The notes under the pieces: model-generated | Database searches by the model: none | Told to the model about the DNA's origin: nothing | The model's input: the letters and a program-made list of their open reading frames with translations, nothing else | Position numbers and translations under genes: made by a program | In this document: positions 8,837 through 24,481 of the stretch, piece after piece | How positions within the stretch are numbered: the stretch's first letter is position 1 | Layout: the number at the start of each line of letters is the position of its first letter | Virus record (IMG/VR): IMGVR_UViG_3300017716_001911 | Coordinates: 1-35,345 of that record | Direction: 5' to 3' (one strand) | From: a virus | Taxonomy: Duplodnaviria; Caudoviricetes | Length of the DNA stretch: 35,345 nt

Positions 8837-8982
8837 CACCACCAAAAACACCAAAAGAAGTTATTTTAAGCGAACACTACAAAGAAGTATTATCTTACTA
8901 CGAAATCGTTCCACAAGTGATAATAGACGCTTTTAAACGTGACGTAGAAGAGATACGAAAAGAAAACCCGATTTATCAATAA
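8833..8982 (+). CDS. Small hypothetical protein (49 aa); its stop codon is the TAA of the first array TAAC
   Basis: Read by eye: MTPPKTPKEV...NPIYQ*. Confidence 0.6.
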   Translation: MTPPKTPKEVILSEHYKEVLSYYEIVPQVIIDAFKRDVEEIRKENPIYQ

Positions 8983-9051
8983 CGTTTCGGTGCTTGTAGA
9001 TGCCAGCCTACACGCATTGTATTTTCGGCTGGTAGCTACAAACACCTGTTA
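8980..9051. repeat. attC-like hairpin 1 (72 bp)
   Basis: TAAC gtttc GGTG c TTGTAG a TGCCAGCC ... GGCTGGTA g CTACAA a CACC t GTTA. Confidence 0.8.
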
Positions 9052-9083
9052 TAAGAAGTAGCGGGTAATTAAAACTAAATATT

Positions 9084-9299
9084 ATGAAATTAAAAGATAA
9101 GTTTGAAAAAGTACTAAAAAATTGTAAACCTCATTTTTTAAAATTTGACACAAATGATTGTATAGAAATTTGCGATAATTTTGCCATTAATTTTGCAGAA
9201 TGGTTAGTAATTCAATATAATGAAGATACAATATATGCCGAATATAACACTAAAGAGTTATTAGAAATATTCAAAAAATCTTATGAAAACGAATCGTAG
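9084..9299 (+). CDS. Cassette 1 cargo, FAEW-type hypothetical protein
   Basis: Flanked by GTTATAAGAAGTAGC (9048) and GCTATTTCTTATAAC (9299-9313). Confidence 0.75.
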   Translation: MKLKDKFEKVLKNCKPHFLKFDTNDCIEICDNFAINFAEWLVIQYNEDTIYAEYNTKELLEIFKKSYENES

Positions 9300-9309
9300 C
9301 TATTTCTTA

Positions 9310-9434
9310 TAACGCTTTGCCACTTGGTGCGGTTGGGGCTAAATAAGCCAAATTTTTAACTACAAAAACAATAATTATGACACAAAATAATAATCAAATT
9401 AAACCTGATGCCCAATCGCTCCAAATGGCTGTTA
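9310..9434. repeat. attC-like hairpin 2 (125 bp)
   Basis: TAAC gcttt GCCA c TTGG t GCGGTTGGG ... CCCAATCGC t CCAA a TGGC t GTTA. Confidence 0.8.
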
Positions 9435-9946
9435 TGCAACGTTGCCCTAGTTTTGTCGATGATAACAAAACTCATTATGTTATTTATGTTGAATATATAA
9501 ATAAACGTCCTCATTTAGTAAATTCTGTTTCATATATACCAAATGCTGTAAATGGTGCTTATTGGAGATTATACCATTGGGATTTTGAAATAAATGATAA
9601 TGATTCAAAAGATTTAATTGCATACAATAGTGGCTCTGGAGGTTGTGAAAAAGAAATTATAGCACCAAATTTTATTAAAAATAAAAATGTAGCAGAAATA
9701 TGGATTGCTAATGGAATTGAGTTGCAAGGTAAAGGAGCGAATTTTACTTTAATCAATGAATTGATAGAAATAGAAAACTATTTTAAAAAAAGCAAAAATC
9801 CTTTTGAAATTGCTGAAATAGTAGATAATATCGAATATTGTCCAAAATGCAAATCTTATTCTCGAGATTTTTGTGATACGCATTTATATTATCACGATGA
9901 TGGAACTATCCGATATAAAGGTAATCATAAGCACGTTGTGTACTAA
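9377..9946 (+). CDS. Cassette 2 cargo, hypothetical protein with C-terminal CxxC...C-x2-H zinc motif; starts inside the hairpin loop
   Basis: CPKCKSYSRDFCDTH; inverted repeat GTTATGCAACGTT (9431) / AATGTTGCATAAC (9945-9957). Confidence 0.75.
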   Translation: MTQNNNQIKPDAQSLQMAVMQRCPSFVDDNKTHYVIYVEYINKRPHLVNSVSYIPNAVNGAYWRLYHWDFEINDNDSKDLIAYNSGSGGCEKEIIAPNFIKNKNVAEIWIANGIELQGKGANFTLINELIEIENYFKKSKNPFEIAEIVDNIEYCPKCKSYSRDFCDTHLYYHDDGTIRYKGNHKHVVY

Positions 9947-9953
9947 TGTTGCA

Positions 9954-10080
9954 TAACGCATGTGGCTTTGTCTTGTTGCCGAAAAATAAGACCTAATCTT
10001 TAAATTAAAAACAAAAAATGGAAAGTACAAAACCAACATTAAATGAAGCCGAAAACGGCAATAAGTCAAAACCGATGTTA
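9954..10080. repeat. attC-like hairpin 3 (127 bp)
   Basis: TAAC gcatg TGG c TTTG t CTTGTTGCCG ... CGGCAATAAG t CAAA a CCG at GTTA. Confidence 0.8.
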
Positions 10081-10095
10081 TAAGTAGCTTTTATT

Positions 10096-10332
10096 ATGGG
10101 ATTACAAACGGAAGAAAACAAAGAATTGAGTGAAAAATTAGGAAAAATAGTTTCTAAAAATCCTAGTAAATGGATAAAAGAAAGTAATGAAAGGTCTCGA
10201 ATTAAACAGATTGAAAAAGATAAAGAAATGATAGATTTTGGCTTATGGTTAACAAAAAAAGGAAATTATAATATTAATAATTGGAATAAAACAATGTCCG
10301 AAATGTTAGAAACTTATAAAAAAGAGAAATAA
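10096..10332 (+). CDS. Cassette 3 cargo gene A, hypothetical
   Basis: Inside GTTATAAGTAGCTTT (10077) / AAAGTTACTTATAAC (10567-10581). Confidence 0.7.
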   Translation: MGLQTEENKELSEKLGKIVSKNPSKWIKESNERSRIKQIEKDKEMIDFGLWLTKKGNYNINNWNKTMSEMLETYKKEK

Positions 10333-10334
10333 TT

Positions 10335-10556
10335 ATGACACAAACAATTGAATGTAAATGCGGTAAAACTTTTGCTGCATCAAGTGTGCCTTATTGCTAT
10401 GAAAGCGAAGATTGGCAAGAAAGTTTAAGAGAATACGTAAAACAAGGATGTACCGTCTCTTTAAAAGAAGATAACGATGTGAAATTTGAACAGTGTACTT
10501 GTGACGAATTAGACGAACTTAAAGATATTTTTGATACCGTTATTCTTTTGGAGTAG
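10335..10556 (+). CDS. Cassette 3 cargo gene B, small Cys-rich protein
   Basis: CKCGK...C...CTC. Confidence 0.7.
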   Translation: MTQTIECKCGKTFAASSVPYCYESEDWQESLREYVKQGCTVSLKEDNDVKFEQCTCDELDELKDIFDTVILLE

Positions 10557-10577
10557 CGGTTGTCCTAAAGTTACTTA

Positions 10578-10610
10578 TAACTATAGTATAACACTTACTA
10601 ACTTATGCAA
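10578..10610. other. Array-terminal attI-like site 1
   Basis: TAACTATAGTATAACACTTACTAACTTATGCAA; 26/33 identical to 21278-21310. Confidence 0.65.
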
Positions 10611-10811
10611 CTATCTGTATTATACACGTTTAAAATATATCCTTACATAGTTTGCTTAAGTGACGGATTGCTTTACCAATTAGAACACTGCCCACACAAA
10701 AGAACAAAAGTATTTAGAAAATTAACTTACAACGAAAAAAGAAACGCATATTACATTAATGGTCAATTAGTGACTAAAAAAAGATTACAAACTTTAAAAC
10801 AAAAATTATGA
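10605..10811 (+). CDS. Hypothetical basic protein
   Basis: ATG lies in the terminal site. Confidence 0.65.
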   Translation: MQLSVLYTFKIYPYIVCLSDGLLYQLEHCPHKRTKVFRKLTYNEKRNAYYINGQLVTKKRLQTLKQKL

Positions 10812-11326
10812 AAAAATTATTATTATTATCGCTTTTTGCATTACAAGTTAATGCGCAACACGTTTATTTCTCAGCTGGGTTCGACCCACGAAACGCAATA
10901 ATTGGAAGTTCACCGACTAACGACAAACCCGAATTAAATTATATGTTAGAGTTTAAAATGGTGGGTAACAATAACGTTGAAATTGGAATTGGATTTGAAG
11001 AGTTTAACCGAATTGATTTTAACAGAATGTATGGAACAATCGGTTATAGATTTGAGGCGTTAGGAATGGTTTTAACACCTACAATCGAACCTACTTTAAT
11101 TAATAGATACGACAATTGGGGTGGTGGAATTAACTACGATATGAAACAATCATTTATGACTATTGGAATAGGAACAAATTTAGAAGTTCCGATAAATGAT
11201 AAATTCGGTTTACAATTTTATTGCGGAGCGTTGCCTCGTCCTGATATAAAAATGATGTACGGAAATGATAAAATAGTAGTAAGCGGACAAATTAAATTAA
11301 TTTATAAAATACACTTAAACAAATAA
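10808..11326 (+). CDS. Exported protein, probable outer-membrane beta-barrel
   Basis: Sec signal MKKLLLLSLFALQVNA/Q; alternating amphipathic strands; terminal strand IKLIYKI. Confidence 0.65.
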   Translation: MKKLLLLSLFALQVNAQHVYFSAGFDPRNAIIGSSPTNDKPELNYMLEFKMVGNNNVEIGIGFEEFNRIDFNRMYGTIGYRFEALGMVLTPTIEPTLINRYDNWGGGINYDMKQSFMTIGIGTNLEVPINDKFGLQFYCGALPRPDIKMMYGNDKIVVSGQIKLIYKIHLNK

Positions 11327-11330
11327 CATT

Positions 11331-11510
11331 ATGAGCGAATTATATACAATAGACAGAACACCTCAAACTGATTTAGAAAAATTCCAAGCGTTAAGAATTG
11401 AGGCTTTAGAACGTGAACTTTTAAAACATAAAGAGTTCTTAGCAAAAATACAAGAAGAGTTCGAATTACACTCTTTAGAATTAGCAAAAGGAATCGAAGT
11501 AATATTATGA
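11331..11510 (+). CDS. Small coiled-coil hypothetical protein (59 aa)
   Basis: Read by eye: MSELYTIDRTP...; ATGA overlap with 11507. Confidence 0.6.
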   Translation: MSELYTIDRTPQTDLEKFQALRIEALERELLKHKEFLAKIQEEFELHSLELAKGIEVIL

Positions 11511-11767
11511 AAACATACACACTCCAACAAATAGCAAAAGAGAATAATATAAAAATTCCAACTTTAGAACGTAGGCGTTATGCTTTAAAATTAGAGCCAA
11601 TAGGACAATCAAAAAATTCAAAGGCTAAATTATACAACGAATCACAAGCACGAAAATTGATTAACTACGAAAAGCAAGAACCGATTAAAATTCCCGAAGT
11701 AATACGAATAACTGAAACTTTTTATATTTACCCATCAAAAATGAACTATGACACCGCAACACTATAA
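11507..11767 (+). CDS. Putative HTH DNA-binding protein
   Basis: YTLQQIAKENNIKIPTLERR HTH-like pattern. Confidence 0.55.
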   Translation: MKTYTLQQIAKENNIKIPTLERRRYALKLEPIGQSKNSKAKLYNESQARKLINYEKQEPIKIPEVIRITETFYIYPSKMNYDTATL

Positions 11768-11942
11768 CAACGAAAAAGGAAGTATCTACAAATTTTGTGA
11801 CGACCAAGAACTTAATTCATACGAATTCGATTTGATTAAAAGAATTGTAAGGTGCAGAAAAAAAGGTAATTTCATCGAAGACTTAGAAAAAACAAAACAT
11901 TTAATCGATTTATATTTAAAAGAGTATGAACATAACAGATAA
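11748..11942 (+). CDS. DUF3310/SaV-like phage protein
   Basis: PQHY...RCRKKG..EDLEKT..LIDL motif. Confidence 0.65.
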   Translation: MTPQHYNNEKGSIYKFCDDQELNSYEFDLIKRIVRCRKKGNFIEDLEKTKHLIDLYLKEYEHNR

Positions 11943-12300
11943 ACTTGAACAATTAATCGGAAACACTTATTTATACGAAAATCAACAGATTAAAATACAA
12001 AAAGTAAAGAAAGTAAGTGCAACTTTTGTTGTAATAACAGACAAACGTACGTTCAATATGTACGAATCCGAAGCAATAGAATTTATAACAAAACTAAAAC
12101 AACTTAATACTTTTAAAAATATGAGCACAGATATAACAGAAATACCAAAAGAGGATAAAATGCAACAAATTATTTTTGATGCAATTGCAAGGGTGAAAAA
12201 TGACAAAGAGTACATTCAACAAGCTAATGCAATAAGTAATTTGACTACTCAATTAATTAATATTAAAAAGTTAGAATTACAAATGTTGAATAAAAAATAA
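11926..12300 (+). CDS. Hypothetical protein
   Basis: 124-aa ORF in operon. Confidence 0.7.
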   Translation: MNITDKLEQLIGNTYLYENQQIKIQKVKKVSATFVVITDKRTFNMYESEAIEFITKLKQLNTFKNMSTDITEIPKEDKMQQIIFDAIARVKNDKEYIQQANAISNLTTQLINIKKLELQMLNKK

Positions 12301-12302
12301 AG

Positions 12303-12373
12303 TTAGGAAAATTTTACTAAATTTTTAAAGTGTATTGTTGTGGAAATTGCACACTTTAGGAAAATTTTACTAA
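12303..12373. repeat. Two identical 18-bp near-palindromes TTAGGAAAATTTTACTAA (operator-like)
   Basis: Copies at 12303-12320 and 12356-12373. Confidence 0.75.
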
Positions 12374-12477
12374 CAATACTTAACTAAAAAAACATTGTAT
12401 TGATACATTTTTTAATAGTTAAACCCAATAAAATCAATAAAAACACTAATTGTAAACTAACATTAAATTTAAAAATA

Positions 12478-12672
12478 ATGACAGCACAAAATAATGACAG
12501 ATCTAATGAAATACACGCGATTGAATTTGCAAAATGGTGCTTAAGAAATATTAAAAAAGCGCCTAGTGGTAAAAAGTATGTTTTTAAACATCAAAACAAA
12601 GTTGTTGCAGATGAACATACGATTGGAGAGCTTTACAAAGTTTTTATAATTGATAAAAACTACAACTTTTAA
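12478..12672 (+). CDS. FAKW-type hypothetical protein
   Basis: ATG 12478 preferred over TTG 12400. Confidence 0.65.
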   Translation: MTAQNNDRSNEIHAIEFAKWCLRNIKKAPSGKKYVFKHQNKVVADEHTIGELYKVFIIDKNYNF

Positions 12673-12710
12673 CCAAAATTATATACAATAATCTTTAAAA
12701 ATTATATATT

Positions 12711-12992
12711 ATGACACTATTAAAATCAGAAAGACAAGTATTAATTATCAATGAATTTACAAAACTAAAATTTGTATTTACAGATAAAGACGGAGACCCA
12801 ATAGAAGAAAGCGACAGATACGGAGTGGACCACGTTCAAAATTTAATAAACCTTTTAGCTGGTATGATTAAAAATAAATTATACCCAATTAAAGGCGATA
12901 TTTTAGACGAGGGTACGGATAGAATGATAGTATTAAATAGATACTTTGAAATGAAAAACGATGTTTTATGGATAATTTATGATATTTATTAA
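12711..12992 (+). CDS. Hypothetical protein
   Basis: 93-aa ORF. Confidence 0.7.
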   Translation: MTLLKSERQVLIINEFTKLKFVFTDKDGDPIEESDRYGVDHVQNLINLLAGMIKNKLYPIKGDILDEGTDRMIVLNRYFEMKNDVLWIIYDIY

Positions 12993-12997
12993 AATAA

Positions 12998-13426
12998 ATG
13001 AAAACGTGCGCAAAGTGTAATCTAACTTTTGAATTAGCAAATTTCTACTTTTTAAAACGCAAAGGAAAAAGTTATTGTGATAACTATTGTAAAGAGTGTA
13101 GAAAGTTAGATTGGAAAATCAAAAGACTTGAAAAAGAAAAAAGAGTAAAAGAAAACGGATTTACTTCTTTACATAATTATCGAGTTACAACAAGCGAAAA
13201 ATATAAAGCCTATACTAAAACACAAAAAAGACTTTACGACAAAGAAAACGACTTTATACGAAAGAAAAAAGGAATTGATTTAGCTTCCGACTATTACATT
13301 AGACAACTAATAAAAAAAGACAAATCAATGATAGGTGTGCAAATTCCAAAAGAATTAATAGAACTTTACAGAAATAATTTACTACTTAAAAGAGAAGTTA
13401 AAAATGAATTACAAAAAAGAAATTGA
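12998..13426 (+). CDS. Basic protein with N-terminal CxxC...CxxC zinc finger
   Basis: KTCAKC...F...YCKEC. Confidence 0.7.
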   Translation: MKTCAKCNLTFELANFYFLKRKGKSYCDNYCKECRKLDWKIKRLEKEKRVKENGFTSLHNYRVTTSEKYKAYTKTQKRLYDKENDFIRKKKGIDLASDYYIRQLIKKDKSMIGVQIPKELIELYRNNLLLKREVKNELQKRN

Positions 13427-13694
13427 AAATATAGATAAAGTTTTAAATGAACTTAAACTATTAAAAAGAGAATTAATAGCTACAGAAAATAAAAGTGAAA
13501 AATCTTTTAAGGCAAACGGGAGTATTAAACAAAGACAAAAAGCAAGTGTAGATTTAAATTGGCAATGTATGGCATTAGATAAACAAAGAAAATCAACTTG
13601 GAAAACTATTTTAGAAGCGGATTTAAAAGTATCCTTAGATGACTGCGAATACAATCCAAGCGGTTTTCATTCTTATAAACACGTTGTTAAATAA
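13404..13694 (+). CDS. Hypothetical protein
   Basis: 96-aa ORF. Confidence 0.7.
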   Translation: MNYKKEIENIDKVLNELKLLKRELIATENKSEKSFKANGSIKQRQKASVDLNWQCMALDKQRKSTWKTILEADLKVSLDDCEYNPSGFHSYKHVVK

Positions 13695-13743
13695 GTTGTC
13701 TATAATTTAGAACCATTCCACGTTCTAATTAAAAAACTTTTAC

Positions 13744-13751
13744 TAAATTTG
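13744..13751 (+). promoter_or_regulatory. Bacteroidota -7 promoter box
   Basis: TAAATTTG just before kissing-loop leader 1. Confidence 0.6.
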
Positions 13752-13758
13752 TAAAAAA

Positions 13759-13845
13759 TAAGTTAGGTCAGTAACTTACAAAAAATTAATAACGCCTCGA
13801 ATAATGCTTAATTCTGACCGATTAAGATTTTTATTTGAGGTTTTT
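13759..13845 (+). ncRNA. Kissing-loop leader RNA 1
   Basis: Hairpin loop GGTCAG (13766) complements second hairpin loop CTGACC (13814); T tract follows. Confidence 0.65.
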
Positions 13846-13858
13846 ATTTTATAAAATT

Positions 13859-14038
13859 ATGGAAAATCAATTTAATTTCATTTTTGTATTTATAGGTTTT
13901 GTTATTACAATTCCTTTTATCTTTTTATGTTATAAATTCCATCAATTAAACCAATACAAAAATATAAATAGCATTTTAAAAATGTTAAGTTGGTTTTTAG
14001 TGATGGTTTTGTATTGGTTTATATATTTAAATAGATAA
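13859..14038 (+). CDS. Small two-TM membrane protein
   Basis: ATG 13859; two hydrophobic segments. Confidence 0.6.
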   Translation: MENQFNFIFVFIGFVITIPFIFLCYKFHQLNQYKNINSILKMLSWFLVMVLYWFIYLNR

Positions 14039-14047
14039 TAACCCTTT

Positions 14048-14132
14048 TTTAACGAAGTAGTGAGCGTTAAACAAAAAATATCGAGCCATTGAATTAAGAC
14101 ACTCACTACAATAGTCTTTTTTCGGTGGCTTT
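14048..14132 (+). ncRNA. Kissing-loop leader RNA 2
   Basis: Loop GTAGTGAG (14057) complements loop CTCACTAC (14102). Confidence 0.65.
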
Positions 14133-14151
14133 AATTTTAAACAAAAAAATT

Positions 14152-14352
14152 ATGAGTGAAACAATTTATTTTCAACCTCCAAATATTAATCCTAAATTTT
14201 GTGAAATAGGAATTATTTTAGAAAGCGACAAAGATTATATTTATTATTTAGATGAGCCTTGCAAAATATTAATTAGTGAGGTTAAAATTATAAATAAAGA
14301 AAGTGTAATTTATAATAAAAAAAGTAGATTATATTATATTAAAAAACAATAA
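14152..14352 (+). CDS. Hypothetical protein
   Basis: ATG 14152 preferred over GTG 14125. Confidence 0.65.
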   Translation: MSETIYFQPPNINPKFCEIGIILESDKDYIYYLDEPCKILISEVKIINKESVIYNKKSRLYYIKKQ

Positions 14353-14356
14353 ACTT

Positions 14357-14569
14357 ATGTCAAAAGAATATTTCTTAAAACTATCGGAGCAAATTTACAA
14401 CGATTTGCCAAACGATGAAAAGCTATACTTAAATAATTTAGGTATGGAAGTAAGACAACTACCAACGGAAAAAGACTACGACGATGAAAACTATAAGAAA
14501 ATTAGAAAACATCGAATTGACGCTTGGAATGAGGAACAACAATATTTATTTAAAAAAAGAAATACATAA
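14357..14569 (+). CDS. Hypothetical protein
   Basis: 70-aa ORF. Confidence 0.7.
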   Translation: MSKEYFLKLSEQIYNDLPNDEKLYLNNLGMEVRQLPTEKDYDDENYKKIRKHRIDAWNEEQQYLFKKRNT

Positions 14570-14572
14570 ATT

Positions 14573-15184
14573 ATGGAAAATACTAACTTAGATCTTTGGA
14601 ATAAAGTCGAAAAGACAAATCCAAAATACACAAAAAAAGCAAACGTAGGAGGTAATAATATAACTTCTATTGCGCCACAATATCAAATTAAAAATGTTAC
14701 TGAGCAGTTCGGTATTTATGGTAAAACTTGGGGGTTTAAACAATTAAATTTTGATTACACTTTAGCAAGTGAATTTGATTTGGTTATTTTAGATGCTATT
14801 TTCTTTTTCCCTGATGGCGAGTTCCCAATAAAAAACGCTCAAAAGTTATTTATGGATAATGCAAAAACTAAAATAGATGACAATTTTGCAAAGAAACTTG
14901 AAACAGACACTTTGACAAAAGCAATATCAAAACTTGGTTTTAATGCTGATATATTTTTAGGTTTATTTGATGACGTTAAATATTTAGCTGATGTAACAAA
15001 AGAATTTGCAGAAAAACCAGCACCAATAAAATTAAGCGATAAAGCTATTACGGATTTAATGGCAAAAGGAAGTCAAGAAGTTGAGAAATATTTAAATTTA
15101 CATAAAGAAAATAAAGTTTTGTTATCTGAAACACAAATAGAAACATTAACTTTAGCATTAACTGAAAAGCCGACAACAGTTTAA
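14573..15184 (+). CDS. Rad52/Sak-like single-strand annealing protein
   Basis: TEQFGIYGKTWG and KKLETDTLTKAISKLGFNADIFLG motifs; adjacent to SSB. Confidence 0.7.
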   Translation: MENTNLDLWNKVEKTNPKYTKKANVGGNNITSIAPQYQIKNVTEQFGIYGKTWGFKQLNFDYTLASEFDLVILDAIFFFPDGEFPIKNAQKLFMDNAKTKIDDNFAKKLETDTLTKAISKLGFNADIFLGLFDDVKYLADVTKEFAEKPAPIKLSDKAITDLMAKGSQEVEKYLNLHKENKVLLSETQIETLTLALTEKPTTV

Positions 15185-15215
15185 AAAGGTAGGCTAAATT
15201 AATACATTTTATAAA

Positions 15216-15596
15216 ATGGCAAGATTACAATCTTACGCATTGAGCGTGGCGTTAACAAAAATGAAACATTCAATTATTACTGCTAAAAGCGGTCAGAAAT
15301 GTTTAGTATTACCAATTGATGACAACTATTTAACTTCAATTGAAAAAGATGGTGTGCATTCAGTTTATATGCAAACTGATGTTGTTACAATGGATTCAGA
15401 AGATACCAACGGAAATTGGGGTTTTCAAGTTCAAAAACTTTCAAGTGAAAAATACAAAGAACTTGGAGCAGATAAAGCAAAAGAAGTTCCATTGCCTTAC
15501 TTGGGAAATTTAAAAGTTTTTACTAAAAAGTCAAGTGATGCATCTGAACCAGTAAGTATTGAGTTAGAGGAGGAGCACGACGATTTACCCTTTTAA
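15216..15596 (+). CDS. Single-stranded DNA-binding protein
   Basis: Acidic tail ending DDLPF; follows the annealase. Confidence 0.75.
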   Translation: MARLQSYALSVALTKMKHSIITAKSGQKCLVLPIDDNYLTSIEKDGVHSVYMQTDVVTMDSEDTNGNWGFQVQKLSSEKYKELGADKAKEVPLPYLGNLKVFTKKSSDASEPVSIELEEEHDDLPF

Positions 15597-15640
15597 ATAT
15601 CAAATGCTTAAATTATTAATATCTACATTTGATTTAATAG

Positions 15641-16054
15641 ATGAAACTCACGTTAATAAAACAATTTAACAATACTTTTAAGCTGGCTTATAATTCCGAT
15701 TATGAGCTGGCTAAAAAAGTACCTTTAAACGAGCCTATTGAATTTGAGTTCACAAAGAAAAGAAACTTAAAATTTCATAAAAAGTTTTTTGCTTTATTAA
15801 ATATGGTTTATGAAAACCAAGAACAATATAACAACATTGAACACTTACGTAAAGACTTAACTATTTCGGCTGGATATTACGATTTAAGGTTTAATATTGA
15901 GGGCGTTGAAGTCAAAGAAGCTAAAAGTATTTCGTTCGCTAAAATGGACGATACAGAGTTTTCAGAGTTCTACAATAGAATAGTTGATGTAGTTGTTAAA
16001 TGGTTAGGAATAGATAAGCAAGAAATAATTGAAAACATAGAGCAATATTTTTAA
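15641..16054 (+). CDS. DUF1367/NinB-like protein
   Basis: RNLKFHKKFFALL...AGYY...KSISFAKMDDTEF motif. Confidence 0.75.
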   Translation: MKLTLIKQFNNTFKLAYNSDYELAKKVPLNEPIEFEFTKKRNLKFHKKFFALLNMVYENQEQYNNIEHLRKDLTISAGYYDLRFNIEGVEVKEAKSISFAKMDDTEFSEFYNRIVDVVVKWLGIDKQEIIENIEQYF

Positions 16055-16084
16055 TTAAATTGTTTTTTATATTGAAATAATTAC

Positions 16085-16092
16085 TATATTTG
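16085..16092 (+). promoter_or_regulatory. Bacteroidota -7 promoter box for the replication operon
   Basis: TATATTTG. Confidence 0.65.
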
Positions 16093-16094
16093 TC

Positions 16095-16187
16095 ATGTAG
16101 TTGGCGTCTCACAACATACCAACGTTAGTATTATACATTGTCCTACAATGAAACCGAAGTGAGACGCGGTGGAATTGTGGGACTTTT
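16095..16187 (+). ncRNA. Kissing-loop leader RNA 3
   Basis: Loop CGTCTCAC (16105) complements loop GTGAGACG (16159); outer stem GTCCTACAAT/ATTGTGGGAC then TTTT. Confidence 0.65.
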
Positions 16188-16199
16188 GCATTTAAAATT

Positions 16200-17015
16200 A
16201 TGGATTACTTTAAGTTAATACGAGATTGGTGGGACTTTGCATTTGAGAATCCTGAAAAGGTAAAATCAAATCATTCCGCTTTATATTTATTTATTTTAGA
16301 ACATTGCAATCGTTTAGGTTGGAAAACTAAATTTGGGTTACCTACAACTATGGCAAAAGATGCTATTGGTATAAGAAGTTATAATACTTATATTATAACT
16401 TTAAATGATTTAATAGATTTTGGTTTTATAGAATTGATTGAAAAATCAAAAAATCAATACTCAAGTAATATAGTTGCTATATCATATTTTGATAAAGCAC
16501 TTGATAAAGCACTTGATAAAGCATTTATAAAGCATGATATAAAGCAAAGTGAAAGCAATATAGAAAGCATTGATAGTATAAATACACAATATACCAATAT
16601 ACCAATTAACAATATACAAAATACAAAAGAGAGTTTTAGTGAAATTGAAATTTTACCAATAAACAACCAAGAACAAAAAAGAAAAAAAGTTGCGCCAAAA
16701 AAAGAAATAAATTTACCTAATGAATTTATAGAAATTTGGGATTTGTGGATTGAATACCGAACTGCAAAAAAAATAAAGAATTATGCGAATGATAAATTTG
16801 AACAAATGGCAATTGACAAACTATTAAAGTTTTCAAATAACAATCCAATAATTGCAAAACAAATAATTGAAGAATCAATAACAAACTCTTGGACTGGGTT
16901 CTTTGAATTAAAAAATAAAATAGTTGAACCAATTGTAGCTGGTAGACAAACACTCTCAACTATTCAAAGTAATTCAGATTGGAGTATGATTGAAAACCCT
17001 TATGTAAAAAAGTAA
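16200..17015 (+). CDS. Replication initiator protein (lambda O / DnaD-like organisation)
   Basis: N-terminal wHTH-like region, central repeat linker, C-terminal W..W.EYR...IEESI.NSW.G domain. Confidence 0.75.
   Translation: MDYFKLIRDWWDFAFENPEKVKSNHSALYLFILEHCNRLGWKTKFGLPTTMAKDAIGIRSYNTYIITLNDLIDFGFIELIEKSKNQYSSNIVAISYFDKALDKALDKAFIKHDIKQSESNIESIDSINTQYTNIPINNIQNTKESFSEIEILPINNQEQKRKKVAPKKEINLPNEFIEIWDLWIEYRTAKKIKNYANDKFEQMAIDKLLKFSNNNPIIAKQIIEESITNSWTGFFELKNKIVEPIVAGRQTLSTIQSNSDWSMIENPYVKK
16489..16569. repeat. Iteron-like tandem repeats (putative origin) within the initiator gene
   Basis: TTGATAAAGCA(C) x3, then four degenerate AAAGCA units at 11-12 bp period. Confidence 0.7.
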
Positions 17016-17018
17016 ATT

Positions 17019-17870
17019 ATGAGTAACATACAATTATCAAACGAAGAAAACTACTACATTGTAAAACGTGATGAAATAAACGATGTTTTAAAGTTACCAA
17101 TAAAATCATATTTACAAAGTAGCTACGATTTTAAAAAAATATCAGTTTTAAAGAATGAGCCTAACTTTGTTATGTTAATTGCTGGTTGGTGTGTTCAAAC
17201 CTCTACACTAATGCAAATTAAAAAACCAATAGACCAATTTGTTAAAAAAGATATTTTTACAATGCTAACGGGTTACTGGTCTATTTTAAGTTTTGAAGAG
17301 TTAATAAAGGCTTTTGAATTAGAACGTTTTGGATTGTATAAAGAGAAAACAGAACATTACCAGCTATTTGATTGTAATTATATTTCACAAGTTCTTAAAA
17401 AATACCAGCAATGGAAAAGAGAAAACAAAATGGAATTAAAAATCGAACCATTAAAAAATGAAATTAAAATGAGCGATGCAGAAAAACAAAAAATAATGAT
17501 TGCGGCGGTTAATAAAAAATATTCAGAGTATTTAACTACAAATGAAATCGAAGAGCCGTTTAATCATATTTTCAAAGAATTAATCGAAATAGGCAGAATT
17601 AAGATGCCAACACCTGAAACACCAAAACTTGAAATGTATTATCAAAATAAATTAACTGAGGCACACGCACAAGTTTTAAGAGAGTACGGAATGAAAAAAT
17701 CAATTGATGCAATCGAAAGAAATAAAATAAAAGAAATTATGAACGCATTAATTAACAACACCGAAAACCAAGATGCAAAAAGTAAAATTGAAGTAAGAGC
17801 AAAGAAACTTGTTTTAATAGATTTCTTTAACTCACAAAAACAAAAAGGTTTAACTAAAATTATTGAGTAA
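17019..17870 (+). CDS. Hypothetical protein, possible helicase loader/replication partner
   Basis: Directly downstream of the initiator; synteny only. Confidence 0.45.
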   Translation: MSNIQLSNEENYYIVKRDEINDVLKLPIKSYLQSSYDFKKISVLKNEPNFVMLIAGWCVQTSTLMQIKKPIDQFVKKDIFTMLTGYWSILSFEELIKAFELERFGLYKEKTEHYQLFDCNYISQVLKKYQQWKRENKMELKIEPLKNEIKMSDAEKQKIMIAAVNKKYSEYLTTNEIEEPFNHIFKELIEIGRIKMPTPETPKLEMYYQNKLTEAHAQVLREYGMKKSIDAIERNKIKEIMNALINNTENQDAKSKIEVRAKKLVLIDFFNSQKQKGLTKIIE

Positions 17871-18241
17871 TGGATGCAAGGGAAAAAAATAAAATCAAAT
17901 GTAAATTACACTACGAAAGAACAAAAGGAAATCTAACACCTGAGCAAAAAGAACGTCGAAAAGAATCAGCACGTAAAGCGCAAAGAAACTTTTACTATAA
18001 AAATAAAGAACTTTGTAGATTAAGAATATACGTTACACGTTACAGAAATGATATTAAAAAACAATTAGCAGAAAATAGATTAACTTTGTTAGATAGTTTA
18101 GTAACGAAAAAAGAAATAGATTTTATAAAATCATTAGATACTATTTCGTTAATTAAAAAAGCTCCACGACTAACAATGTGGAACAAAGTTTTAAGTCAAT
18201 GGACTTTTAAAGATTTCAATAAACTACTTAGTTTAATTTAA
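17870..18241 (+). CDS. Basic hypothetical protein
   Basis: 123-aa ORF. Confidence 0.7.
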   Translation: MDAREKNKIKCKLHYERTKGNLTPEQKERRKESARKAQRNFYYKNKELCRLRIYVTRYRNDIKKQLAENRLTLLDSLVTKKEIDFIKSLDTISLIKKAPRLTMWNKVLSQWTFKDFNKLLSLI

Positions 18242-18244
18242 AAA

Positions 18245-18568
18245 ATGAGAAAAATTAATATAAAACCTTTATCCGTTAATGAATGTTGGCAAGGGCGTAG
18301 ATTTAAAACTAAAGAATATAAGCAATATGAAAAAGATTTACTTTTAATGTTGCCAAATATAAAACTAAAAATCCAGCGTGTAAGCATTAATATTGTTTTT
18401 GGGTTCAGTAATTCACTTTGTGATATAGATAATCCTTTAAAACCATTTTTAGACGTATTACAAAAGAAGTATAACATTAATGATAGGGATATTTACAATT
18501 TAAACGTAACTAAAAAGGTTATAAAAAAAGGTGAGGAGTTTATAAAATATCAAATTAAAGAGATATGA
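18245..18568 (+). CDS. rusA: RusA-family Holliday junction resolvase
   Basis: PLSVN..W and DIDNPLKPFLDVL...NDRDI catalytic motif. Confidence 0.85.
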   Translation: MRKINIKPLSVNECWQGRRFKTKEYKQYEKDLLLMLPNIKLKIQRVSINIVFGFSNSLCDIDNPLKPFLDVLQKKYNINDRDIYNLNVTKKVIKKGEEFIKYQIKEI

Positions 18569-18702
18569 GTAAAAAACAAGAGCCTAAATACCCAATAGAC
18601 CAAAAAATAAAAGACCTACACAAAGCAATAGTTCAAGGCGATAAAGAAACTAAAGATAAATTGCAGAAATATATAGATTTCGTGTATTGGGGAATTAAGT
18701 AA
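18565..18702 (+). CDS. Small hypothetical protein (45 aa)
   Basis: Read by eye; ATGA overlap with rusA. Confidence 0.55.
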   Translation: MSKKQEPKYPIDQKIKDLHKAIVQGDKETKDKLQKYIDFVYWGIK

Positions 18703-18733
18703 AAAAATATTAGATTTATTAAAAACTTATTTA

Positions 18734-18741
18734 TATATTTG
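18734..18741 (+). promoter_or_regulatory. Bacteroidota -7 promoter box; likely drives the operon containing array 2
   Basis: TATATTTG. Confidence 0.65.
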
Positions 18742-18745
18742 CAGA

Positions 18746-18826
18746 GTAGAGTCGTAGCTACAATTAAAAACATTACAAAAATTCGCTCTACGATAAGGAC
18801 TACGACCCTTTGAATAGAGCGTTTTT
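18746..18826 (+). ncRNA. Kissing-loop leader RNA 4
   Basis: Loop GTCGTAG (18751) complements loop CTACGAC (18800); outer stem CGCTCTA/TAGAGCG then T tract. Confidence 0.65.
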
Positions 18827-18837
18827 ATTTTTAAATT

Positions 18838-19041
18838 ATGAACCAAAAAAACGAAATACTCTGGACAATTTTCAGAGAGCAAAACACAACACAAGTAAGA
18901 TTTGCAAAATTAGTCGGAATGGACAGACCTTGCAACGTAGGTAAATGGCTAAGCGGTCAACAAGAAATTAGTTATAAGAAATTAGAACACATTGCGGATT
19001 GCTTTGGGTATAAATTGAATGTAACGCTTGAGAAGAAATAA
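18838..19041 (+). CDS. Cro/CI-type (XRE) HTH regulator
   Basis: TQVRFAKLVGM...VGKWLSGQQEISYKKLEHIADCFG. Confidence 0.85.
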   Translation: MNQKNEILWTIFREQNTTQVRFAKLVGMDRPCNVGKWLSGQQEISYKKLEHIADCFGYKLNVTLEKK

Positions 19042-19056
19042 TAAGCGCATCTCGTA

Positions 19057-19182
19057 CAACGTTTCACGGCTTTAAGAAGTAGCGGAAAAGTACACAAAAA
19101 TTATTAATTAAACACAAATTAACCAAACACAAAAACAACATAAAATTAAGCCTTAAACCGCTATTTCTTAAAACCGATGTTA
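19057..19182. repeat. attC-like hairpin 4 (126 bp)
   Basis: CAAC gtttca CGG c TTTAAGAAGTAGCGG ... CCGCTATTTCTTAAA a CCG at GTTA. Confidence 0.8.
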
Positions 19183-19209
19183 GTAGCTGTGTTTTTATTC
19201 AGAAAAATT

Positions 19210-19530
19210 ATGTCATACAAAAAAAGAGAAGAACTATTCTCAAAATTAGAAGAGATTAGAATTGATATGGAAAAATACTTGAATGAGTATTTACTTCAAT
19301 TGTTAAAAAACAAAGAATTAACAGAATATGAATTAGAAATACTATTTCAACCATTCGATGAAGACGCACCCGAATTAGTAAAAGTTCATAGTGTAAATGA
19401 TAAAGGAGAATTGTTATTGACTTTTGAGTATTTTGACGGAACTATTCAAAATGAAGAAGTAGAAATGGAACAATTAAGATTTGATGCTTTATTTCAATTA
19501 ATAGAACTTCTTGAGCAGTTAGTTGAGTAA
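19210..19530 (+). CDS. Cassette 4 cargo, acidic hypothetical protein
   Basis: ATG 19210 (or 19177); flanks GTTAGTAGCTGTGTT / AACATAGCTACTAAC. Confidence 0.75.
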   Translation: MSYKKREELFSKLEEIRIDMEKYLNEYLLQLLKNKELTEYELEILFQPFDEDAPELVKVHSVNDKGELLLTFEYFDGTIQNEEVEMEQLRFDALFQLIELLEQLVE

Positions 19531-19539
19531 CATAGCTAC

Positions 19540-19669
19540 TAACGTTATCTCGCTTTGTGACTGTTACGGCACTAAGCGAACTGTAAATTTTCGGCTACCG
19601 AAAAACGTGAACGTAACAACAAAATTTAATATTAACTGAAATTGCCGTAATAGCACAAAACGAGTGTTA
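19540..19669. repeat. attC-like hairpin 5 (130 bp)
   Basis: TAAC gttatc TCG c TTTGTG a CTGTTACGGCA ... TGCCGTAATAG CACAAA a CGA gt GTTA. Confidence 0.8.
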
Positions 19670-19696
19670 GCGGTTGTTTTTTTATTCAACTAAAAA

Positions 19697-20002
19697 ATGA
19701 AAATAACAGAAAAAAGAACGGTTACAGAGTTTAAAAACGTAACTATTGGCAGAAAATGTGATGTTTGCGGAAAAACACACGAAGGAGACAGATTTCCTGA
19801 TGAATGGCATTCATTTAATCATCATCACGATGAATGGGGTAATGACAGTTGTGATTCTTATGAATATCACGAGGTGTGTTCGCCTGAATGTTATTGGACT
19901 AAATTTAAAGAATGTGTCGAAGATTTAAACGGACGGTCAAGTGCAAAAGTTGATGAGTTTGAAATTCAATTTGCACGTATGTTGCTCGAAAATAACCGCT
20001 AA
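19697..20002 (+). CDS. Cassette 5 cargo, zinc-binding hypothetical protein
   Basis: CDVCGK...VCSPEC; flanks GTTAGCGGTTGTTTT / AAAATAACCGCTAAC; stop codon is the TAA of TAAC. Confidence 0.78.
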   Translation: MKITEKRTVTEFKNVTIGRKCDVCGKTHEGDRFPDEWHSFNHHHDEWGNDSCDSYEYHEVCSPECYWTKFKECVEDLNGRSSAKVDEFEIQFARMLLENNR

Positions 20003-20127
20003 CGTTATACGGCTATACGATGGTTGGGATTAAGTAAGCCGTAATTTTTCCGATTAACACAAATTATCCCGACACAAACAAAACTTTAAATTAAACAATT
20101 AACCCAACTATTGTATAACCGTTGTTA
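20000..20127. repeat. attC-like hairpin 6 (128 bp)
   Basis: TAAC gttata CGG c TATACGATGGTTGGG ... CCCAACTATTGTATA a CCG tt GTTA. Confidence 0.8.
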
Positions 20128-20152
20128 GCAGTAGTTATAATACTCAATTAAA

Positions 20153-20416
20153 ATGGCATACACTCACGAACAATTAGAAAAATTAGGATTTAAAAAAGTT
20201 GAAGACAAAGAAACTGGAATTATTGATTTTGTAAATAAAGTTACAAGCAATGTTCATTTGGTTTTAAGCCCAATGTTAGAAGAATTATTTATTTGGGTTT
20301 TAGAAGATGGTGGCGATGAAGATTCAGATGGAACTAAAATAATTATTGATACTTCTGATTTGAAAAAAGCAATAAAATTATGTGAAATGATTGTCGGTGT
20401 TGACGATGGTTTCTAA
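20153..20416 (+). CDS. Cassette 6 cargo, hypothetical protein
   Basis: LEKLGFKK motif; flanks GTTAGCAGTAGTTAT / ATAATTACTGCTAAC. Confidence 0.75.
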   Translation: MAYTHEQLEKLGFKKVEDKETGIIDFVNKVTSNVHLVLSPMLEELFIWVLEDGGDEDSDGTKIIIDTSDLKKAIKLCEMIVGVDDGF

Positions 20417-20426
20417 TAATTACTGC

Positions 20427-20556
20427 TAACGTTTCTCGGCTTTGTCTAGTGCCGTAAATTCAAGACAGAACTTAACAAATAAATCCAAAATTATGAATTT
20501 AAAAAAGATTTTTACAAAAAAAGACCGAGCAAAGGCATTAGTCAAAACCGATGTTA
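20427..20556. repeat. attC-like hairpin 7 (130 bp)
   Basis: TAAC gtttct CGG c TTTG t CTAGTGCC ... GGCATTAG t CAAA a CCG at GTTA. Confidence 0.8.
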
Positions 20557-20768
20557 GCAGTAGTATTTTATCTGATGATGATTTTAAACAATTTGAAAAA
20601 CTATTCGATAAAATTTCAGCACATTTAGAACATCCAATGAGTATTTGTCAAGGTGTAAATGATGGTTATAGTATCGGAGTTTATGATATAAAAACAGGAG
20701 AATTGAAAGCACAGGCAATGAGTTACAACGTCAAAAATTGCGTAAATCTTATTAAGGAACGTCTTTAA
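20493..20768 (+). CDS. Cassette 7 cargo, hypothetical protein starting inside the hairpin loop
   Basis: aaaattATG at 20493 reads through GAT GTT AGC; flanks GTTAGCAGTAGTATT / AATATTACTGCTAAC. Confidence 0.7.
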   Translation: MNLKKIFTKKDRAKALVKTDVSSSILSDDDFKQFEKLFDKISAHLEHPMSICQGVNDGYSIGVYDIKTGELKAQAMSYNVKNCVNLIKERL

Positions 20769-20777
20769 TATTACTGC

Positions 20778-20902
20778 TAACGTTATGCTGGTAGGCGATG
20801 TAGCGGACTGATAAGCCAAAACTTTCAGTTCTGCCAATAATAAACAAGTATTCACAATCTTTAAATTAAGCCTTAAACCGCTATATCGTTTACCAGCGGT
20901 TA
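20778..20902. repeat. attC-like hairpin 8 (125 bp)
   Basis: TAAC gttat GCTGGTAGGCGATGTAGCGG ... CCGCTATATCGTTTACCAGC g GTTA. Confidence 0.8.
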
Positions 20903-20953
20903 TGCGTTCGGCTATTTTATCACAATATTAATCGTTAAAAAATAATAAATAAA

Positions 20954-21280
20954 ATGAAATTAGAATTATCAGAAAATGTTTTGGCTCAAATAAATGAGCA
21001 AAATGATAAAGTAAATGAATTATGTGGTTATCCATCAAATGATGTCCGCAACTGGTTTAAAGATTTACAAGAAAAAGAAACCGTAACTGTAGGCTACAGA
21101 GCTTCTTGTGGAAGCACAGATAAAACTATGAAGATTTATAGAATATGGATTAAAGTAACTAAAATACTTAAAAAAAACGGTGTCAAATTAATAGAGGAAA
21201 ATGTACCTACTATTAACAGAAGTCCCACAAGTGCGAATGGTTTTTGGAACGAGGTTCGTTTCTCCGTAGCTGACGCATAA
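20954..21280 (+). CDS. Cassette 8 cargo, hypothetical protein
   Basis: Flanks GTTATGCGTTCGGCTA / TAGCTGACGCATAAC; stop codon is the TAA of TAAC. Confidence 0.75.
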   Translation: MKLELSENVLAQINEQNDKVNELCGYPSNDVRNWFKDLQEKETVTVGYRASCGSTDKTMKIYRIWIKVTKILKKNGVKLIEENVPTINRSPTSANGFWNEVRFSVADA

Positions 21281-21310
21281 CTATTCACTAAGTCTTACTA
21301 AATTATGCAA
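21278..21310. other. Array-terminal attI-like site 2
   Basis: TAACTATTCACTAAGTCTTACTAAATTATGCAA; 26/33 identical to 10578-10610. Confidence 0.65.
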
Positions 21311-23988: not shown

Positions 23989-24437
23989 TGAACGAACTAC
24001 AAATACTTAACGACTTTGTAATTAATCACTTTGAAAGTGAGAATTTAATTAATACGATTACAATTGTACCAACTATAAATATAGATGCTAACAAAGAAAA
24101 CATTTACCCATTAGTTAACATTGATTTAATTAATACCGAAGTTTTATCTAATGCTATTATCGGTTCGTATAAATTAACTATCATTACCCAACGAGATATT
24201 CAGCCAAAAAAGACTAATAATAAATTGTTAACCGATACAAATTATTTAGATAACATAAATGAAACTCACGCAATTTGTGTTAAATTTGTAAATAATATAA
24301 CGAGATTGCATAACGATGAAAATATAATGATTGAAAACCTAACCACATTAAAAGCTTTAAAAAATTTGGGTGCTGGTGGATGCGATGGATTTCAATTTGA
24401 ATTTGATTTATCGATTCATAATAAACAAAAAGAGTAA
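23988..24437 (+). CDS. Putative tail terminator/completion protein
   Basis: 149 aa, YPLVNI motif, synteny. Confidence 0.5.
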   Translation: MNELQILNDFVINHFESENLINTITIVPTINIDANKENIYPLVNIDLINTEVLSNAIIGSYKLTIITQRDIQPKKTNNKLLTDTNYLDNINETHAICVKFVNNITRLHNDENIMIENLTTLKALKNLGAGGCDGFQFEFDLSIHNKQKE

Positions 24438-24481
24438 GCTGAAAATCTAAAGAGTAAGCATAACCATGAAAAATAAAGAAT

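What the first reader, a model, noticed from the sequence alone, without database searches (positions are those of the whole stretch)
9048..21281. Each cargo is bracketed by its own 13-16 bp inverted repeat with an invariant G.T at position 11
Seen pairs: GTTATAAGAAGTAGC/GCTATTTCTTATAAC, GTTATGCAACGTT/AATGTTGCATAAC, GTTATAAGTAGCTTT/AAAGTTACTTATAAC, GTTAGTAGCTGTGTT/AACATAGCTACTAAC, GTTAGCGGTTGTTTT/AAAATAACCGCTAAC, GTTAGCAGTAGTTAT/ATAATTACTGCTAAC, GTTAGCAGTAGTATT/AATATTACTGCTAAC, and GTTATGCGTTCGGCTA/TAGCTGACGCATAAC (one bulge). Arms co-vary within each cassette. In seven the only imperfection is G opposite T at position 11, and the eighth has it too after the bulge. These arms become contiguous with the hairpin only in an excised circle, extending its stem. 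Classical attC R boxes are about 7 bp, so this longer outer stem with a fixed wobble suggests a distinct site class, or a recombinase that reads both sides of the AAC/GTT core.
Basis: partly seen in the sequence, partly recalled or inferred. Interest (0 to 1): 0.85.

Follow-up and report, generated by a model that had tools for sequence, protein, structure and literature searches.

The report
Wobble-marked integron-like cassettes in a phage
Eight small gene units of this phage are swappable cassettes whose two ends pair over 13-15 bases with one fixed G-T mispair, a mark repeated in the neighbouring hairpin and in related sites of Bacteroidota phages and chromosomes, and it likely tells a host integron-like recombinase which folded single DNA strand to cut.

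Summary
Confirmed. All eight arm pairs exist, in two arrays of a complete 35-kb phage that lacks a tyrosine recombinase. The G.T at position 11 is also in the inner hairpin arm (8 of 8 here; 87 of 88 viral and 89 of 92 chromosomal unbiased sites), so the site is two-fold symmetric: two 15-bp arms around a 4-nt bulge. Relatives show each cassette moving with the hairpin on its left, cut within AAC, and one contig lacks cassettes 5-8 exactly. The G.T strand follows the site, not transcription (genes sense in phages, antisense in chromosomes), which favours folded DNA over RNA. At the non-hairpin insertion site position 11 becomes A (30 of 47), so the enzyme likely needs the T, and the G confines activity to one folded strand. 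Chromosomal arrays start at a tyrosine recombinase lacking the IntI insertion. The clinical veb1 cassette carries the same mark. Long arms alone are not unique (aadB pairs 12 bp). No recombination was tested. This scan has reported the same wobble and system before on other DNA; my ten paper searches found no description of the site anatomy.

The parts
8981..9050 (+). Hairpin site S1 (AAC, 8-nt spacer, inner arms with G9002.T9033, 4-nt spacer, GTT); heads cassette 1
9048..9313 (+). Cargo 1 with own arms; ORF 9084-9299
9311..9433 (+). Hairpin site S2 (G9332.T9416); the start codon of the cargo-2 gene (9377) lies in its loop
9431..9957 (+). Cargo 2 (ORF 9377-9946); unit 9310-9957 recurs at 94.8% in L177 with unrelated flanks
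9955..10079 (+). Hairpin site S3 (7-nt spacer; G9975.T10062; placed by hand, missed by the detector)
10077..10581 (+). Cargo 3, two ORFs (10096-10332, 10335-10556); L032 has the same arms and second gene but another first gene
10579..10605 (+). Terminal non-hairpin site of array 1, attI-like (inferred insertion point)
19058..19181 (+). Hairpin site S4 (G19079.T19164)
19179..19543 (+). Cargo 4 with own arms; ORF ending 19530
19541..19668 (+). Hairpin site S5 (1-nt bulge; G19563.T19651)
19666..20003 (+). Cargo 5; ORF 19697-20002
20001..20126 (+). Hairpin site S6 (G20022.T20109)
20124..20430 (+). Cargo 6; ORF 20153-20416; unit 19998-20430 recurs with other flanks in contigs of runs X3 and X4
20428..20555 (+). 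Hairpin site S7 (G20449.T20538); the cargo-7 reading frame runs through it
20553..20781 (+). Cargo 7; ORF ending 20768
20779..20901 (+). Hairpin site S8 (G20800.T20884)
20899..21281 (+). Cargo 8 (arms with one bulge); ORF 20954-21280
21279..21305 (+). Terminal non-hairpin site of array 2, attI-like; joined directly to the end of cassette 4 in one contig of run X3 and to another cassette in run X5

Best explanation
The arms are the outer half of an integron-like recombination site that bounds mobile gene cassettes, and the fixed G.T likely restricts a host tyrosine recombinase to one folded DNA strand. Shown: a cassette is AAC + hairpin + GTT arm + cargo + own arm; it moves as that unit, with the join inside the AAC; both the outer and the inner arm have G on the strand leaving the centre and T on the strand entering it at position 11. 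Inferred: each arm binds one recombinase subunit that needs the T at 11. On the window's + strand the fold gives G.T in both arms; the other strand gives A.C; unfolded double-stranded sites give G:C in one arm of each half; the double-stranded insertion site keeps A:T. So only the folded + strand and the terminal site would be substrates, the job that extrahelical bases and the I2 helix do in classical integrons. The T sits 15 nt from the G of GTT, the stacked register of the conserved extrahelical T of classical attC, so it may be flipped out. A single strand exchange at AA|C would insert a circle at the terminal site; own-arm pairing would rebuild a perfect site in the circle and pull excision forward. 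The enzyme would come from the Bacteroidota host. Phage cassettes carry genes inverted relative to host cassettes.
For: G.T at 11, inner arm, position not scored by the detector: 87 of 88 viral and 89 of 92 chromosomal non-seed sites. Outer arm: 108 + 6 after a 1-nt bulge of 118 viral, 89 + 31 of 124 chromosomal; T at 11 in 117 of 118 and 123 of 124. Positions 12-15 pair in 79-96% of 92 distinct viral arm pairs against 29-52% with permuted partners, with 3-4 pair types each. Variable mismatches in inner arms are G.T 73 vs A.C 3 (viral) and 97 vs 3 (chromosomal) on the same strand, although genes are sense in phages (111 vs 4 of 118) and antisense in chromosomes (105 vs 1 of 124). Moved units: (4 informative pairs). 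Terminal sites share L3 T (46 of 47), L7 C (31), L8 G (30), L10 A (30) with hairpin arms but have A at 11 (30 of 47; G 5) against G in 341 of 348 hairpins. Recombinase at array heads; lacks about 40 residues at the IntI insertion. IntI1 handles family members poorly: veb1 site 50-fold weaker than aadB (PMC3518468, Discussion read; membership); P12002L attC1 not recombined (PMC9892861 section 3.4 read; membership by eye).
Against: No recombination, binding or circle was observed; the enzyme link is by neighbourhood. 12 of 20 regions downstream of recombinase hits showed no such site (5 of them cut short under 3.2 kb), and G003 has none within 20 kb. Inner position 2 is a C.A mismatch on the favoured strand in 98 of 146 viral and 140 of 202 chromosomal sites, which favours the other strand locally. 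An invariant pair shows no covariation, so wobble geometry and plain base read-out cannot be told apart. A at attI-like position 11 is only 64% against a 40% background and the 47 ends are not independent. The folding advantage of the + strand (117 of 118; 118 of 124) partly restates the G.T. A related recombinase array (L237) works with shorter sites and no G.T at 11, so the mark is not universal in the enzyme family. Whole-array folding put own arms together across the cargo in only 4 of 9 cases on + and 2 of 9 on -, and cassette 6 changed with the segment.
Confidence: 0.7

Rival explanations
1. The sites are recombined as double-stranded DNA; G and T at 11 are simply conserved bases of four binding arms and never meet.
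For: The recombinase lacks the I2 insertion held to confer single-strand activity (PMC7790495 passages); the pair is invariant.
Against: Compensatory pairing through both arms, a 4-nt bulge with a co-varying 3-bp stem, and a 73:3 and 97:3 excess of G.T over A.C on one strand need a folded strand.
Confidence: 0.12
2. The stems act in RNA (G.U pairs), as regulatory leaders or as an RNA intermediate of cassette birth.
For: In phages the G.T strand is the coding strand and loops hold start codons.
Against: In chromosomes the G.T strand is the antisense strand (105 vs 1 of 124); no Rfam match; DNA units move at the AAC.
Confidence: 0.07
3. These are ordinary, long attC sites of a CALIN, served by a classical IntI; the wobble is a founder feature.
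For: AAC/GTT core, bottom-strand bias, attI-like head; aadB also has 12-bp own arms; veb1 sits in class 1 integrons.
Against: No fixed extrahelical bases, 8/4 spacer, neighbours below the IntI cut-off (166-208 vs 265 bits); G.T fixed while flanking pairs take all four types; poor or no IntI1 activity on two members (papers above).
Confidence: 0.06

Closest known systems
Classical integrons: IntI, attI, attC (Nivina 2016, PMC5027507, passages read; VchIntIA, PDB 2A3V)
   Same: Cassettes joined within an AAC/GTT triplet; hairpin sites with R and L arms; more stable non-coding strand in chromosomes; non-hairpin insertion site beside a tyrosine recombinase whose top fold match is 2A3V; conserved T in the same stacked register on the arm opposite AAC (by eye).
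   Different: 14-15-bp arms with G.T at 11 in both arms instead of T-N6-G extrahelical bases; 8/4-nt spacer with a 3-bp stem instead of a 5-6-nt unpaired spacer; enzyme lacks the IntI insertion, is usually co-directional with the cassettes and has an extra N-terminal domain; phage genes inverted.
rAID-1 clusters of Bacteroidales (Ross 2019, 10.1101/471110; Azhieh-type follow-up PMC12247911; passages read, supplementary motif figure not seen)
   Same: XerD-like recombinase followed by co-directional low-GC genes with repeated intergenic motifs called integron-like; similar prevalence (71 of 151 genomes; 226 of 423 in the paper).
   Different: The passages give no site structure, crossover, wobble or phage arrays. 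The one immunity-gene array I read (L237) has shorter sites ending ATT, without G.T at 11. Identity to the defining B. fragilis protein was not measured.
veb1 cassette attC (Aubert 2012, PMC3518468; abstract, passages and Discussion read)
   Same: Own arms 10 WC + G.T at 11 + 3 WC, 125-nt site, inner G.T.
   Different: Described as a poor, divergent attC of class 1 integrons; not recognised as member of another family in the parts read.
Phage CALINs (Qi 2023, PMC9892861; passages, section 3.4 and supplement rows read)
   Same: Integrase-less arrays in phages; Polaribacter phage P12002L attC1 has this family's layout.
   Different: Treated as canonical attC; attC1 failed with IntI1; their attC2 corresponds to the reverse complement of a cassette's terminal end, not a hairpin site.

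Membership tests
Classical integron | IntI with the I2 insertion in the catalytic domain | tested here: not met
   6 of 6 neighbours match TIGR02249 in two pieces at 166-208 bits, cut-off 265; 22 vs 64 residues between the two blocks against 2A3V
Classical integron | Crossover within the conserved AAC/GTT triplet | tested here: met
   Moved and missing units end within (T)AAC; the exact bond is not resolved
Classical integron | attC with two or three extrahelical bases (T-N6-G) | tested here: not met
   No fixed bulge in inner arms; occasional 1-nt bulge at 7-9 only; control aadB shows them
Classical integron | Unpaired central spacer of 5-6 nt on each arm | tested here: not met
   8 nt (117 of 133 sites) opposite 4 nt, with G.T, 4-nt bulge and 3-bp stem; the detector allowed only 7-9 and 4
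Classical integron | Bottom (non-coding) strand folds better | tested here: met
   118 of 124 chromosomal sites, mean -4.3 kcal/mol; computed, not measured
Classical integron | attI beside the recombinase gene at the head of the array | tested here: met
   Non-hairpin ends next to the gene in L055, L078, L101, G005, L221, L223, L241; same consensus in phages
Classical integron | Single-strand recombination of the folded site | not testable with these tools
   Needs a bench assay
CALIN | Cluster of sites without integrase in the replicon | tested here: met
   No PF00589 match in the complete phage genome; control rang in 14 of 14 genomes
CALIN | Sites are canonical attC | tested here: not met
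   See spacer and extrahelical-base rows; IntegronFinder itself was not available
rAID-1 | Recombinase over 44% identical to BF9343_RS08045 | not tested
   Reference protein not fetched
rAID-1 | Two or more co-directional downstream genes of at most 41% GC | tested here: met
   Met by host loci such as L223, L231, L236, L238; not applicable to the phage
rAID-1 | Orphan immunity cargo and the rAID intergenic motif | tested here: inconclusive
   Tdi1/GAD-like cargo in L237, whose sites differ; window cargo has no family above cut-off; published motif not seen
Rfam RNA motif (Flavo-1 or other) | Match to a curated covariance model | tested here: not met
   No match over any site in the window or in 6 array loci
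HARP-like domain in the recombinase | HARP profile or fold | tested here: inconclusive
   1 of 10 N-termini over the Pfam cut-off; best PDB sequence and Foldseek match 4O66 at E 0.14 and 0.32; VIA Z 5.1 MotA, 4.4 UvsW, 3.8 4O66

The most novel reading that the evidence does not exclude
A second, I2-independent solution to single-strand cassette recombination spread across Bacteroidota: symmetric G.T wobbles, possibly read by a HARP-like N-terminal domain, replace extrahelical bases; phages exploit the host enzyme with inverted cassettes that neither side can express from the other's array; and the same system launched blaVEB and tet(X3) towards clinical plasmids.
Probability: 0.4. Interest if true: 0.9.

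Novelty: new variant of a known kind. Interest (0 to 1): 0.75.

Why it matters
The I2 helix is held to be what lets integron enzymes recombine folded single strands (PMC7790495). A large family that lacks it and uses a mismatch code would make the origin of integrons directly testable with three point changes at one position. It would also reveal cassette arrays in a phylum and its phages that current attC models may miss, explain why the clinical veb1 site works badly with IntI1, and point to a native context for blaVEB-3 and tet(X3), which sit behind truncated relatives of this recombinase.

Tried and rejected
Rfam/Flavo-1 (recalled lead): no match. BLAST of site S4 against named phages and plasmids: none. 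A two-ended viral pattern found nothing because I wrote a 7-nt instead of an 8-nt spacer. No terminase relative in viral contigs, so no whole-genome comparison; cargo 5 gave only a weak hit. A recombinase in the phage: none. The alternative unit (hairpin to the right travels with the cargo): rejected. Self-assembly of a four-way junction in the single-stranded array: mixed, kept only as an idea. My detector missed S3, the veb1 site and P12002L attC1; these were read by hand or from the fold. Recombinase tree: no outgroup was recovered and most deep forks are open, so it supports no origin claim; the VEB-3 neighbour is unplaced. Sigma-70 promoter scan: 87 vs 76 by chance, uninformative. Weak Pfam hits of cargo proteins are below cut-off. 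A paper search for a HARP-MutS link gave nothing usable; that kinship is recalled. Array 1 was not examined in population contigs.
Full report
Setting. The window is a complete phage genome: a 123-nt terminal direct repeat, 100% complete, with terminase, portal, tape-measure and replication genes. It has no PF00589 tyrosine recombinase. Host assignment to Bacteroidota is inferred from the sites below.

Observation. All eight arm pairs are present, seven as 10 Watson-Crick pairs, G.T at 11, then 2-4 pairs, the eighth with one bulge. Seven G.T pairs of this pattern stand against a mean of 0.045 and a maximum of 1 in 200 shuffles. They form two arrays, 8981-10581 (three cassettes) and 19058-21281 (five).

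Anatomy. Between cargos lies a hairpin: AAC, 8 nt, inner arm, loop, inner arm, 4 nt, GTT (70-128 nt here). Counted from the spacer, the inner arm also has G.T at 11 in 8 of 8. The site is therefore two-fold symmetric. A detector that does not score position 11 (0-1 hits on 5 shuffled windows) found G.T at inner 11 in 87 of 88 viral sites that did not match the search pattern (54 loci) and 89 of 92 in bacterial genomes (123 stretches, nearly all titled Bacteroidota or Ignavibacteria among the 80 listed, a few not). For outer arms, 59 of 80 viral spans between adjacent sites were matched pairs (21 dropped, many spanning a missed site) with G.T in 55; chromosomal 57 of 75 with 46. In the larger set, chosen for pairing at 1-8, counts were 108 + 6 bulged of 118 and 89 + 31 of 124, with T at 11 in 117 and 123. 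Positions around 11 co-vary with three or four pair types. G and T themselves are fixed, so neighbours in the array also give G.T (75 of 80) while most other positions mismatch.

The unit. Window 9310-9957, hairpin S2 plus cargo 2, recurs at 94.8% over 648 nt in L177 between unrelated neighbours. Four other pairs behave alike. In contigs of four public runs laid on array 2, one contig of X3 joins 19539 to 21278 with a 4-letter overlap and no other differences, so cassettes 5-8 are exactly absent; cassette 6 (19998-20430) lies in other contexts in X3 and X4; in X5 another cassette end abuts 21279. Whether the X3 form is a loss or an earlier state is open. The hairpin on the left travels with the cargo and the join lies within AAC. 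Both arrays end on the right in a non-hairpin site; such ends in phages and chromosomes share one consensus. Of 51 ends I dropped 4 that looked like missed hairpins; in the other 47 the first arm matches the hairpin arm at 3, 4, 7, 8 and 10 but has A at 11 (30; G 5; background A 0.40, p = 8e-4, ends not independent) against G in 341 of 348 hairpins.

DNA or RNA. Variable mismatches in inner arms are G.T rather than A.C on the same strand of the site, 73:3 in viruses and 97:3 in chromosomes, yet cargo genes are sense to that strand in phages (111 vs 4 of 118) and antisense in chromosomes (105 vs 1 of 124). The bias follows the site, not the message. Against this, inner position 2 is usually C.A on that strand. 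No Rfam family matches.

The enzyme. Of 18 candidate ORFs near chromosomal sites, 8 matched PF00589; six strong ones lie on the terminal-site side, four co-directional with the cargo and two divergent. All six fall below the IntI cut-off in two pieces and about 40 residues are missing against VchIntIA, which is still the best fold match. The profile finds a gene at the array head in G005, near the array end in G004, and with no array within 20 kb in G003; 71 of 151 genomes of G001's order match; 8 of 20 downstream regions held sites, all G.T at 11 and in the expected orientation. L237, an immunity-gene array of rAID type, has shorter sites without the mark. 22 of 26 proteins carry a 60-residue N-terminal domain, most of them by construction of the profile; its HARP likeness is weak but recurs in four methods. 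That HARP resembles junction- and mismatch-binding domains is recalled, not from a call.

Mechanism. Shown: unit, join, symmetry, strand bias, enzyme neighbourhood. Inferred: each subunit needs T at 11 on the strand entering the centre; G opposite makes this true in both arms only for one folded strand; the duplex insertion site uses A:T. In aadB attC the extrahelical G and T lie 9 and 16 nt from the G of GTT (by eye; numbering as in PMC5027507); here T lies at 15 with no extruded base before it, the same stacked register. Own arms are about 8 kcal/mol stronger than neighbour arms, which would favour the circle. One hairpin-and-arm chassis carries nine cargos of 284-584 nt, and L032 shares cassette 3's ends and second gene but not its first, so genes are also swapped inside cassettes.

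Known relatives. The class 1 integron cassette veb1 has own arms of 10 + G.T + 3 and a 125-nt site; its attC is 50 times weaker than aadB's with IntI1 (PMC3518468). P12002L attC1 has this layout and was the one of six phage sites that IntI1 did not recombine (PMC9892861). Truncated relatives of the recombinase (48-51% identity) lie directly upstream of blaVEB-3 and tet(X3) on plasmids; both genes begin with a family-type arm (by eye; the tet(X3) arms mismatch at 5-7). Long arms alone are not diagnostic: aadB pairs 12 bp.

Literature. Ten searches found no description of this site anatomy; the library lacks most subscription papers, and the rAID supplementary motif figure could not be seen. Read: passages of 10.1101/471110, PMC12247911, PMC5027507, PMC7790495, PMC9723704, PMC2864571, PMC13616975; passages, section 3.4 and supplement rows of PMC9892861; abstract, passages and Discussion of PMC3518468. 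Earlier notes of this scan report the same system and wobble on other DNA; they gave me the rAID lead, the recombinase lead and one paper id, all checked as listed.

Verdict. Real, selected and part of an integron-like system that fails the defining tests of classical integrons but works like one. New variant of a known kind; interest 0.75; wobble-as-strand-selector confidence 0.7, untested at the bench.

Noticed in passing
L240/L243:5019-7110 and L242:6133-7754 (plasmids): Truncated recombinases of this family lie directly upstream of tet(X3) and blaVEB-3; both genes start with a family-type arm, and tet(X3) ends with a partly matching arm and half a hairpin.
   Followed up: partly
L244:6000-7080: The veb1 cassette of a class 1 integron carries the full G.T-marked site.
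   Followed up: yes
L185 (NC_028924) about 30058 and 29176-29300: The two sites tested by Qi 2023 are one family hairpin and the reverse complement of a terminal cassette end.
   Followed up: partly
L237:1890-5420: Immunity-gene array behind a related recombinase with about 55-nt sites ending ATT, about 9-bp arms and no G.T at 11: a second site subtype.
   Followed up: partly
L241:9137-16900: Chryseobacterium plasmid with an intact recombinase and array interrupted by IS110 and a group II intron.
   Followed up: no
window 9377, 10019-10082, 20442-20555: Reading frames start inside hairpin loops; in S3 a short peptide ends at the arm just before the cargo gene, which may couple translation.
   Followed up: no
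window 13762-13850, 14052-14140, 16096-16190, 18741-18830: Four intergenic stem-loops upstream of genes, two of them with a c4-antisense-like layout (recalled); folding z-scores -3.4, -2.8, -1.3, -2.5; no Rfam match.
   Followed up: partly
window 8963-8983 and 19045-19060: The leftmost arms of both arrays have no partner but keep T at 11, as expected of the original target's arm.
   Followed up: partly
window 12292-12380: A short direct repeat (about 20 nt) in an AT-rich intergenic stretch, possibly an operator or origin.
   Followed up: no
G004 (L095 and L188): Sites occur both near 3.64 Mb and near 3.97-3.98 Mb of one chromosome: one very long array or several.
   Followed up: no
window 24429-24460: Rfam DUF805b match just above its gathering score.
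   Followed up: no
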